Assembly (NCBI RefSeq): GCF_003334305.1
Contig: NZ_QOWS01000013.1
Strand: one strand, 5' to 3'
DNA length: 64,000 bases
Source: Escherichia coli
Lineage (GTDB): Bacteria; Pseudomonadota; Gammaproteobacteria; Enterobacterales; Enterobacteriaceae
How positions within the stretch are numbered: position 1 is the first letter of the stretch; each line of letters starts with the position of its first letter. Both the position numbers and the translations under genes were made by a program. Under the pieces are notes generated by a model. That model did no database searches. It was not told where the DNA came from and was given only the letters and a program-made list of their open reading frames with translations. Shown here piece after piece: positions 6,324-30,108 of this stretch.

Positions 6324-6797
<474 letters not shown>

Positions 6798-6838
6798 TCA
6801 CCCGATATGGTGGTTGATACAACATTATTGTGCATACA

Positions 6839-6856
6839 GATGAATTTTTATGCAAA
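6839..6856 (-). promoter_or_regulatory. ARG-box-like operator in the argR promoter region
   Basis: Minus-strand TTTGCATAAAAATTCATC fits the ARG box consensus WNTGAATWWWWATTCANW at 16 of 18 positions, 45-62 bp upstream of the argR start. Confidence 0.4.
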
Positions 6857-7153
6857 CAGTCAGCCCTGAAGAAGGCTGAAATAATGTTATGAAAGAGCGG
6901 GATTTTATCAAATTTCGTTATTGAGAAACATGCCTGCGTCACGGCATGCAAATTCTGCTTAAAAGTAAATTAATTGTTATCAAATTGATGTTGTTTTGGC
7001 TGAACGGTAGGGTATATTGTCACCACCTGTTGGAATGTTGCGCTAATGCATAAGCGACTGTTAATTACGTAAGTTAGGTTCCTGATTACGGCAATTAAAT
7101 GCATAAACGCTAAACTTGCGTGACTACACATTCTTGAGATGTGGTCATTGTAA

Positions 7154-8167
<1,014 letters not shown>

Positions 8168-29631: not shown

Positions 29632-30108
29632 CAGAAAGCTTCCAGCGGATTTCCAACTTATCGGGAAAGCTGATACAGGTCAAATGGCAAGCTTATTGGT
29701 ACAGAAATGTGCTTTAGCGCAAAATTCTTTATTAAATGACTGAAATTAAAATAGATTTTATCTTTAAGGCTAAAAGGGAAGTCGTTAGAGAAACAGTCAA
29801 TTCCTGACTGTCATAAAGGCGTGTTAACCCTTATCCTGCCTTGAACTGACGAGAAAACCAGCATTTTATACTGCCTTAATTGGTAATGACGTTTCATGCT
29901 ACTGTTTTTGCCTAAAATCCATAAGGAGATAAAAAAATCTGACACAAGATAAGCAAAAGTGATTTATGTGATTATGCATGAAATTTCGGTAATTTTGATT
30001 GATTATGCAGTTGATAAAAGCAGGCCGGGACGATTGATCCAGGTCATCGCAGAATTGAGCTAAAAATGGCAGGCTTTGGCCTCTTTTCAAGGCGCGGTCT
30101 ATCAGATT

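What the first reader, a model, noticed from the sequence alone, without database searches (positions are those of the whole stretch)
6839..6856. ARG-box-like site in the argR promoter (autoregulation)
A 16/18 match to the ARG box consensus lies upstream of argR on its coding strand; a second adjacent box is not convincingly present in my reading.
Basis: partly seen in the sequence, partly recalled or inferred. Interest (0 to 1): 0.25.

Follow-up and report, generated by a model that had tools for sequence, protein, structure and literature searches.

The report
Known self-repression operator of E. coli argR
The flagged 18-bp site is the stronger half of the well-known operator through which the E. 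coli arginine repressor shuts off its own gene; it is real and conserved but already described.

Summary
Window 6839-6856 reads GATGAATTTTTATGCAAA, or TTTGCATAAAAATTCATC on the argR strand. It matches the ARG-box consensus at 16 of 18 positions on both strands and is the only site with two or fewer mismatches in the 64 kb. A matrix built from ten other E. coli arginine-regulon promoters, with argR left out, ranks it first of 63,983 positions at 17.3 bits.

It lies at 6819-6836 (TATGCACAATAATGTTGT, 7.6 bits), on the argR-proximal side, after a 2-bp spacer rather than the usual 3 bp. In 23 Enterobacterales orthologues a second box appears only in that register (16 of 23; none at six other spacings). 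A held paper states that the argR operator is the one E. coli operator with 2-bp spacing.

A published start site 27 nt upstream of the ATG (promoter argRp1) places the box pair at -35 to +3, covering both promoter hexamers. Published reporter work finds ArgR affinity about ten-fold weaker at argR than at the enzyme promoters, which fits the weak second box.

Verdict: this is the known argR autoregulatory operator.

The parts
6839..6856 (-). ARG box 1 (promoter-distal, strong): TTTGCATAAAAATTCATC on the argR strand. It lies at -35 to -18 relative to the TSS at 6821.
   Evidence: 16/18 to the consensus. 17.3 bits, rank 1 of 63,983 positions. The core TTGCATAAAAATTCA is invariant or nearly so in 24 Enterobacterales sequences.
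6837..6838 (-). 2-bp spacer (TG on the argR strand) between the two boxes; the canonical spacer is 3 bp.
   Evidence: Only the 2-bp register yields a second box, both in the window and in orthologues (16/23 at spacer 2; 0/23 at spacers 0, 1, 3-6). The literature states that the argR operator has 2-bp separation (PMC3293853).
6819..6836 (-). ARG box 2 (promoter-proximal, degenerate): TATGCACAATAATGTTGT. It lies at -15 to +3 relative to the TSS at 6821.
   Evidence: 7.6 bits, in the top 0.06% of window positions. 13/18 to the IUPAC consensus, with mismatches at positions 5, 7, 14, 15 and 16. The left half, ATGCATAAT, is conserved across Enterobacterales. Other Enterobacteriaceae carry T at position 7 and score 13-15 bits.
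6850..6855 (-). -35 hexamer TTGCAT of promoter argRp1, inside box 1.
   Evidence: Mendoza-Vargas 2009 Table S1 places the -35 element in ctgaCTGTTTGCAtaaa for the argR TSS. Coordinates were checked. These columns are invariant in alignment A1.
6827..6832 (-). Inferred -10 hexamer CACAAT (CATAAT in most other Enterobacterales), inside box 2, 17 bp from the -35.
   Evidence: Inferred from its position relative to the published TSS and from the 17-bp spacing. Conserved in A1. No experiment was run here to map it.
6820..6822 (-). Transcription start of argRp1: 27 nt upstream of the ATG, and within 1 nt of the RegulonDB promoter.
   Evidence: PMC2760140 supplementary Table S1: argR, TSS/start-gene distance -27, 'Known sigma 70', argRp1, promoter distance -1.
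6884..6911 (-). Candidate upstream promoter (TTGATA, 16 bp, TAACAT), lying 5' of the operator.
   Evidence: It is the only sigma-70-like hit in 6700-7300 (the scan itself finds no more hits than shuffles do). It is conserved in Escherichia, Citrobacter, Enterobacter cloacae and Superficieibacter. My recollection that Lim et al. 1987 described two argR promoters could not be checked, because that paper is not held.
6324..6794 (-). argR coding sequence (156 aa), the regulated gene and the source of the repressor.
   Evidence: ORF list. RefSeq annotation 'transcriptional regulator ArgR'.

Best explanation
Window 6819-6856 is the operator of the Escherichia coli argR gene.

The pair covers -35 to +3 of the sigma-70 promoter argRp1. 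The -35 hexamer lies in box 1, and the -10 hexamer and the start site lie in box 2.

The inferred mechanism is the established ARG-box model. One arginine-loaded ArgR hexamer binds both boxes on one face of the helix and excludes RNA polymerase, so that ArgR represses its own synthesis (negative autoregulation).

The degenerate second box and the non-canonical spacing give a lower affinity than at the biosynthetic operators. Repression of argR is therefore partial, and a basal level of repressor is maintained.
For: Sequence and statistics:
- The site matches the consensus at 16/18 and is the only site with <=2 mismatches in 64 kb.
- A PWM built from 20 boxes recovered upstream of carA, argF, argA, argECBH, argG, argD, argI, artJ, artP and hisJ, with argR excluded, ranks it first in the window at 17.3 bits.
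- The box pair 6819-6856 scores 24.9 bits, the second-best pair in the window. The best pair (29973-30011) falls in the gltB-yhcC intergenic region. ArgR binding there is reported by footprinting upstream of -270 of gltB (PMC1784095) and by ChIP-exo at yhcC (PMC4381063). The matrix therefore picks out two regions of reported ArgR binding.

Conservation:
- Box 1 is invariant and lies 43-48 nt from the ATG in nearly all Enterobacterales examined.
- A second box appears only at the 2-bp register: 16/23 at spacer 2 and 0/23 at each of six other registers.
- A box of >=15 bits lies within 150 nt upstream of argR in 44 of 79 gammaproteobacterial loci, against 4 of 1,334 control windows.
- The 66-bp operator stretch is identical in 5,369 of 5,426 complete E. 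coli genomes.

Literature:
- The argR operator is the exception with 2-bp box separation (PMC3293853). A spacer of 2 or 3 bp is given in PMC4381063.
- The TSS lies 27 nt upstream of the ATG, at known promoter argRp1, with the -35 in CTGTTTGCA (PMC2760140 Table S1).
- argR is a core member of the ArgR regulon in gammaproteobacteria (PMC5343134).
- Steric exclusion of RNA polymerase is shown at carP2 and is the general model (PMC6245113; PMC6640053).
Against: - Nothing here measures binding. Occupancy and repression at this site rest on the literature, not on these tools.
- The primary papers on the argR operator (Lim et al. 1987; Tian et al. 1992; Charlier et al. 1992; Maas 1994) are not held. 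The exact footprint boundaries could therefore not be compared base by base.
- Box 2 alone is weak. At intergenic composition, about 0.4% of positions reach 7.6 bits. Its reality therefore depends on register and conservation.
- The conserved left half of box 2 (ATGCATAAT) also contains the -10 hexamer, so part of that conservation may reflect promoter function rather than ArgR contacts.
- The TSS evidence is a single 454 read, although it coincides with a previously known promoter.
Confidence: 0.95

Rival explanations
1. The site is a lone ARG box with no partner. It would bind ArgR weakly as a single box, like the single box in ColE1 cer.
For: In the canonical 3-bp register neither neighbour resembles a box (-11.1 and -14.2 bits). 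Box 2 scores below the weakest training box (7.6 against 8.6 bits).
Against: At the 2-bp register a box of 7.6 bits is present, in the top 0.06% of positions. In orthologues that register, and no other, carries a box of up to 15.3 bits. The literature describes the argR operator as two boxes 2 bp apart.
Confidence: 0.03
2. The match is incidental. The conserved block would be only the -35/-10 promoter of argR in AT-rich intergenic DNA, not a repressor site.
For: TTGCAT and CA(T/C)AAT inside the boxes are the promoter hexamers. The region is 62% A+T. One site with <=2 mismatches per 64 kb is within chance expectation.
Against: - Conservation extends over the whole TTGCATAAAAATTCA, including the spacer-region bases between the promoter hexamers, which a promoter alone does not constrain.
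- At the composition of this intergenic region, P(score >= 17.3) is 1.75e-5 per position.
- Strong boxes recur upstream of argR in distant genera (Shewanella, Pseudoalteromonas, Haemophilus, Endozoicomonas) at different distances and with different flanks.
- Reporter data show ArgR-dependent repression of the argR promoter.
Confidence: 0.01
3. The site chiefly controls the divergent mdh gene rather than argR.
For: argR and mdh share the 435-bp intergenic region. ArgR can act from a distance at gltBDF.
Against: The boxes lie 374-411 bp from the mdh ATG (7230). They overlap the argR promoter and TSS exactly. No held paper reports ArgR control of mdh. This was not tested further.
Confidence: 0.01

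Closest known systems
E. coli K-12 argR operator / promoter argRp1 (Lim et al. 1987; Tian et al. 1992; Charlier et al. 1992; RegulonDB)
   Same: It is the same locus. The 601-bp argR-mdh stretch is >=99% identical in all 5,426 complete E. coli genomes, and K-12 has the same gene arrangement. The features match the published description: two 18-bp boxes, a 2-bp spacer, overlap with the promoter, and a TSS 27 nt from the ATG.
   Different: No difference was detected. The original footprint coordinates could not be read because those papers are not held, so box boundaries are from my PWM and not from the footprints.
Canonical ARG operators of the biosynthetic genes (argF, argI, carAB P2, argECBH, argA, argD, argG)
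   Same: Each has 18-bp imperfect palindromes in tandem that overlap the -35 and/or -10 hexamers and are bound by one arginine-loaded ArgR hexamer.
   Different: Those operators have a 3-bp spacer, and both boxes usually score 14-22 bits. At argR the spacer is 2 bp and the second box scores only 7.6 bits. Published affinity is about ten-fold lower.
gltBDF/yhcC ArgR site in the same window (29973-30011)
   Same: It is an ARG-box pair found by the same matrix (25.3 bits, 3-bp spacer). It lies in a region of reported ArgR binding.
   Different: It lies far upstream of the gltB promoter and does not occlude polymerase. The argR operator sits on its own promoter.

Membership tests
ArgR operator (tandem ARG boxes) of Enterobacteriaceae | An 18-bp imperfect palindrome matching TNTGAATWWWWATTCANW | tested here: met
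   Box 1 matches at 16/18, scores 17.3 bits and ranks 1 of 63,983 positions.
ArgR operator (tandem ARG boxes) of Enterobacteriaceae | A second box adjacent to the first, separated by 2-3 bp | tested here: met
   Box 2 at 6819-6836 follows a 2-bp spacer, scores 7.6 bits and matches at 13/18. The register is conserved in 16/23 orthologues and in no other register. The literature gives 2 bp for argR. The box is weak when judged alone.
ArgR operator (tandem ARG boxes) of Enterobacteriaceae | Boxes overlap the -35 and/or -10 elements of the regulated promoter | tested here: met
   The published TSS at -27 from the ATG (argRp1) places the boxes at -35 to +3.
ArgR operator (tandem ARG boxes) of Enterobacteriaceae | Physical binding by arginine-loaded hexameric ArgR (footprint, EMSA or ChIP) | not testable with these tools
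   Known only through the literature. PMC3293853 cites Charlier 1992 and Tian 1992 for the argR operator. PMC4381063 says ChIP-exo covered all 15 previously characterised ArgR regions, but its site table is not held.
ArgR operator (tandem ARG boxes) of Enterobacteriaceae | [quoted passage not shown] | not testable with these tools
   Literature: argR promoter reporter data fitted with an ArgR affinity ten-fold weaker than at the enzyme promoters (PMC3658269).
Conserved core of the gammaproteobacterial ArgR regulon (autoregulated argR) | An ARG box upstream of argR orthologues across taxa | tested here: met
   44 of 79 loci have a box of >=15 bits within 150 nt upstream of argR, against 4 of 1,334 control windows. 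This agrees with PMC5343134.

The most novel reading that the evidence does not exclude
The Escherichia/Citrobacter lineage carries a T-to-C change at position 7 of box 2 (CATAAT to CACAAT). This single base lowers the box from 13.0 to 7.6 bits and also weakens the -10 hexamer. It may be a lineage-specific retuning of ArgR autoregulation, giving looser self-repression from a weaker promoter than in Enterobacter, Kluyvera or Yersinia. If so, it would help explain the ten-fold lower operator affinity measured in E. coli.
Probability: 0.3. Interest if true: 0.15.

Novelty: already known. Interest (0 to 1): 0.08.

Why it matters
The finding matters little beyond annotation. Negative autoregulation through a deliberately weak operator keeps a basal supply of repressor. 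That is the accepted explanation for the behaviour of the arginine regulon. The analysis also shows that a matrix trained on other arg promoters recovers both regions of reported ArgR binding in the window. This is useful as a calibration for judging other ARG-box calls from the first stage.

Tried and rejected
- I looked for the primary descriptions of the argR operator (Lim 1987 as PMC299150 and PubMed 3116542; Maas 1994 as PMC372985; Makarova 2001 as PMC31482; Cho 2011 as PMC3777760; Thomason 2015 as PMC4288677). None is held.
- A full-text search for the operator sequence found only a decoy-design paper. Its 'consensus' ArgR site and primer flanks nearly reproduce the argR box 1 region. 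A search for the box 2 sequence found nothing.
- The site tables of the ChIP-exo paper are not held.
- The supplements of Kim 2012 (TSS profiling) do not mention argR or its coordinates. The Conway 2014 supplements are not held.
- A paper on an 'ARG box' mutation under ciprofloxacin selection concerns argI, not argR.
- The 3-bp register for a second box was tested on both sides and rejected (-11.1 and -14.2 bits).
- A second box on the distal side was rejected at every spacing tried.
- An Rfam scan of 6700-7300 found no RNA family.
- A weak box at 7088-7105 (8.6 bits) in the mdh-proximal part of the intergenic region is within chance expectation for this composition, about 1.7 positions >=7.6 bits per 435 nt. 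I dismissed it.

Full report
**What is in the window.** The window is Escherichia coli chromosome. The 601-bp stretch 6700-7300 is >=99% identical in all 5,426 complete E. coli genomes. It is annotated there as argR and mdh, and K-12 has the same gene arrangement. argR is on the - strand at 6324-6794, and mdh diverges on the + strand from 7230.

**The observation.** Window 6839-6856 reads GATGAATTTTTATGCAAA. On the argR strand it reads TTTGCATAAAAATTCATC. Both strands match TNTGAATWWWWATTCANW at 16 of 18 positions. It is the only site with two or fewer mismatches in the 64 kb. Shuffles give a mean of 0.89 strand-hits, so one such site somewhere in the window is unremarkable. Its position, 45-62 nt upstream of the argR start codon, is what carries information.

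**An independent matrix.**
- I fetched ten other arginine-regulon control regions from K-12: carA, argF, argA, argECBH, argG, argD, argI, artJ, artP and hisJ.
- A consensus-seeded, iterated search picked the best tandem pair in each. Nine of the ten pairs came out with a 3-bp spacer. From memory, several (argF, argI, carAB) match the published boxes; I could not check this against a held source.
- The resulting symmetrised matrix does not include argR.
- It ranks 6839-6856 first of 63,983 window positions at 17.3 bits, within the training range of 8.6-22.0 bits.
- Only 4.5% of 200 Markov-1 randomised windows reach that score anywhere.
- At the composition of the AT-rich argR-mdh intergenic region, the per-position probability of 17.3 bits is 1.75e-5.

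**The second box.**
- In the canonical 3-bp register both neighbours fail (-11.1 and -14.2 bits).
- At a 2-bp spacing on the argR-proximal side, 6819-6836 reads TATGCACAATAATGTTGT. It scores 7.6 bits, in the top 0.06% of window positions, and matches the IUPAC consensus at 13/18.
- The pair 6819-6856 scores 24.9 bits, the second-best pair in the window.
- The best pair (29973-30011, 25.3 bits) lies between gltB and yhcC. ArgR binding there has been shown by footprinting and by ChIP-exo. This serves as a positive control for the matrix.

**Conservation.**
- A scan of one genome per species returned 79 argR loci across Gammaproteobacteria.
- In nearly all Enterobacterales examined, box 1 lies 43-48 nt from the ATG.
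- Its core, TTGCATAAAAATTCA, is invariant or nearly so in a 24-sequence alignment whose flanks are otherwise poorly conserved (mean column identity 49%).
- I scored the position downstream of the best box at spacers 0 to 6. A second box of at least 7 bits appears in 16 of 23 genomes at spacer 2 and in none at any other spacer.
- Enterobacter, Kluyvera, Pseudocitrobacter and Yersinia carry TATGCATAATAAT..., scoring 13-15 bits.
- E. coli, E. albertii and Citrobacter carry C instead of T at position 7. That one base accounts for the drop from 13.0 to 7.6 bits.
- More widely, a box of at least 15 bits lies within 150 nt upstream of argR in 44 of 79 loci, against 4 of 1,334 control windows from the same loci.
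- Within E. coli, the 66-bp stretch around the operator is identical in 5,369 of 5,426 genomes.

**Relation to the promoter.**
- Supplementary Table S1 of Mendoza-Vargas et al. 2009 lists an argR start site 27 nt upstream of the start codon.
- It classes this as the known sigma-70 promoter argRp1 (1 nt off), with the -35 element in ctgaCTGTTTGCAtaaa.
- In window coordinates the start is 6820-6822, and the -35 TTGCAT is 6850-6855, inside box 1.
- The inferred -10 CACAAT is 6827-6832, inside box 2 and 17 bp from the -35. The operator therefore spans -35 to +3.
- A further promoter-like site (TTGATA, 16 bp, TAACAT; 6884-6911) lies upstream of the boxes and is conserved among close relatives.
- I recall that Lim et al. 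1987 described two argR promoters, one overlapping the boxes, but that paper is not held and I could not check it.

**What held papers say.**
- PMC4381063: gives a spacer of 2 or 3 bp.
- PMC3658269: repressor affinity is ten-fold weaker for the argR promoter than for seven enzyme promoters, which ensures basal repressor expression.
- PMC5343134: lists argR itself in the conserved core of the gammaproteobacterial ArgR regulon.
- PMC6640053 and PMC6245113: describe one hexamer binding two boxes on one face of the helix and excluding RNA polymerase.

**Mechanism: what is shown and what is inferred.**
- Shown here: the sequence match, its statistical standing, the second box and its register, the conservation, and the overlap with the published start site.
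- Taken from the literature: ArgR binding at this operator, arginine dependence, and the lower affinity.
- Inferred: repression at argRp1 works by steric exclusion, and the weak box 2 together with the 2-bp spacer is the cause of the lower affinity.

**Rivals.**
- A lone box with no partner is contradicted by the register test and the literature.
- A purely promoter-driven conservation does not explain the invariant bases between the hexamers. Nor does it explain the recurrence of strong boxes upstream of argR in distant genera with different flanks.
- A role mainly at mdh is unlikely, because the boxes lie 374-411 bp from the mdh start codon.

**Verdict.** This is the known argR autoregulatory operator. 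The only correction is that a partner box exists at a 2-bp spacing. Novelty: already known. Interest: low.

Noticed in passing
window 29973-30011: This is the best-scoring tandem ARG-box pair in the window (25.3 bits, 3-bp spacer): TATGCATGAAATTTCGGT aat TTTGATTGATTATGCAGT. It lies in the gltB-yhcC intergenic region, where ArgR binding has been reported (gltBDF upstream of -270; yhcC by ChIP-exo).
   Followed up: partly
window 22883-22900: A strong single ARG-box match, TTTGCATGAATATACAAA (16.3 bits), has no partner box. It lies in a stretch next to gltD that only 721 of 5,426 E. coli genomes carry in full. In matching genomes that stretch is annotated as a DUF1016 protein and transposase or IS1 elements. 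It may be a chance match.
   Followed up: partly
window 24314-24331: An ARG-box-like palindrome, ATTGAGTTTGAATTCAAT (14.4 bits), lies inside the 472-aa ORF at 23543-24961 (- strand), probably gltD. It has no partner box.
   Followed up: no
window 6829-6830 (box 2 position 7) and loci L001, L003, L005, L010: E. coli, E. albertii and Citrobacter have CACAAT where other Enterobacteriaceae have CATAAT. This single base weakens both the second ARG box (13.0 to 7.6 bits) and the inferred -10 hexamer.
   Followed up: partly
window 6857-6880 (- strand): A short inverted repeat, TCAGCC-TTCTTCAG-GGCTGA, lies between the upstream promoter-like site and box 1. The 3' arm is not conserved in E. albertii or Citrobacter (GGCAGA), so it is probably not functional.
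   Followed up: partly
window 6969-6994 (- strand): The sequence ACAACATCAATTTGATAACAATTAAT is listed as a predicted ArcA site for this intergenic region in a supplementary table of PMC2760140. If real, it would more plausibly concern the divergent mdh gene.
   Followed up: no
PMC7826281 against window 6830-6870: A published synthetic 'consensus ArgR decoy' (TTATTTGCATAAAAATTCATT) and the flanks in its cloning primers (TGTATGCACA and CAGTCAGCCCC) nearly reproduce the native argR box 1 and its neighbours. Box 1 is therefore almost the strict consensus of the RegulonDB ArgR sites.
   Followed up: no
loci L039, L041, L044-L051, L050, L075, L076: Shewanella, Pseudoalteromonas, Haemophilus and Endozoicomonas each have an ARG box of 18-22 bits upstream of argR. 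The distances from the ATG differ (38-132 nt), and partner boxes are mostly at a 3-bp spacing or absent. The 2-bp spacing therefore looks specific to Enterobacterales.
   Followed up: partly
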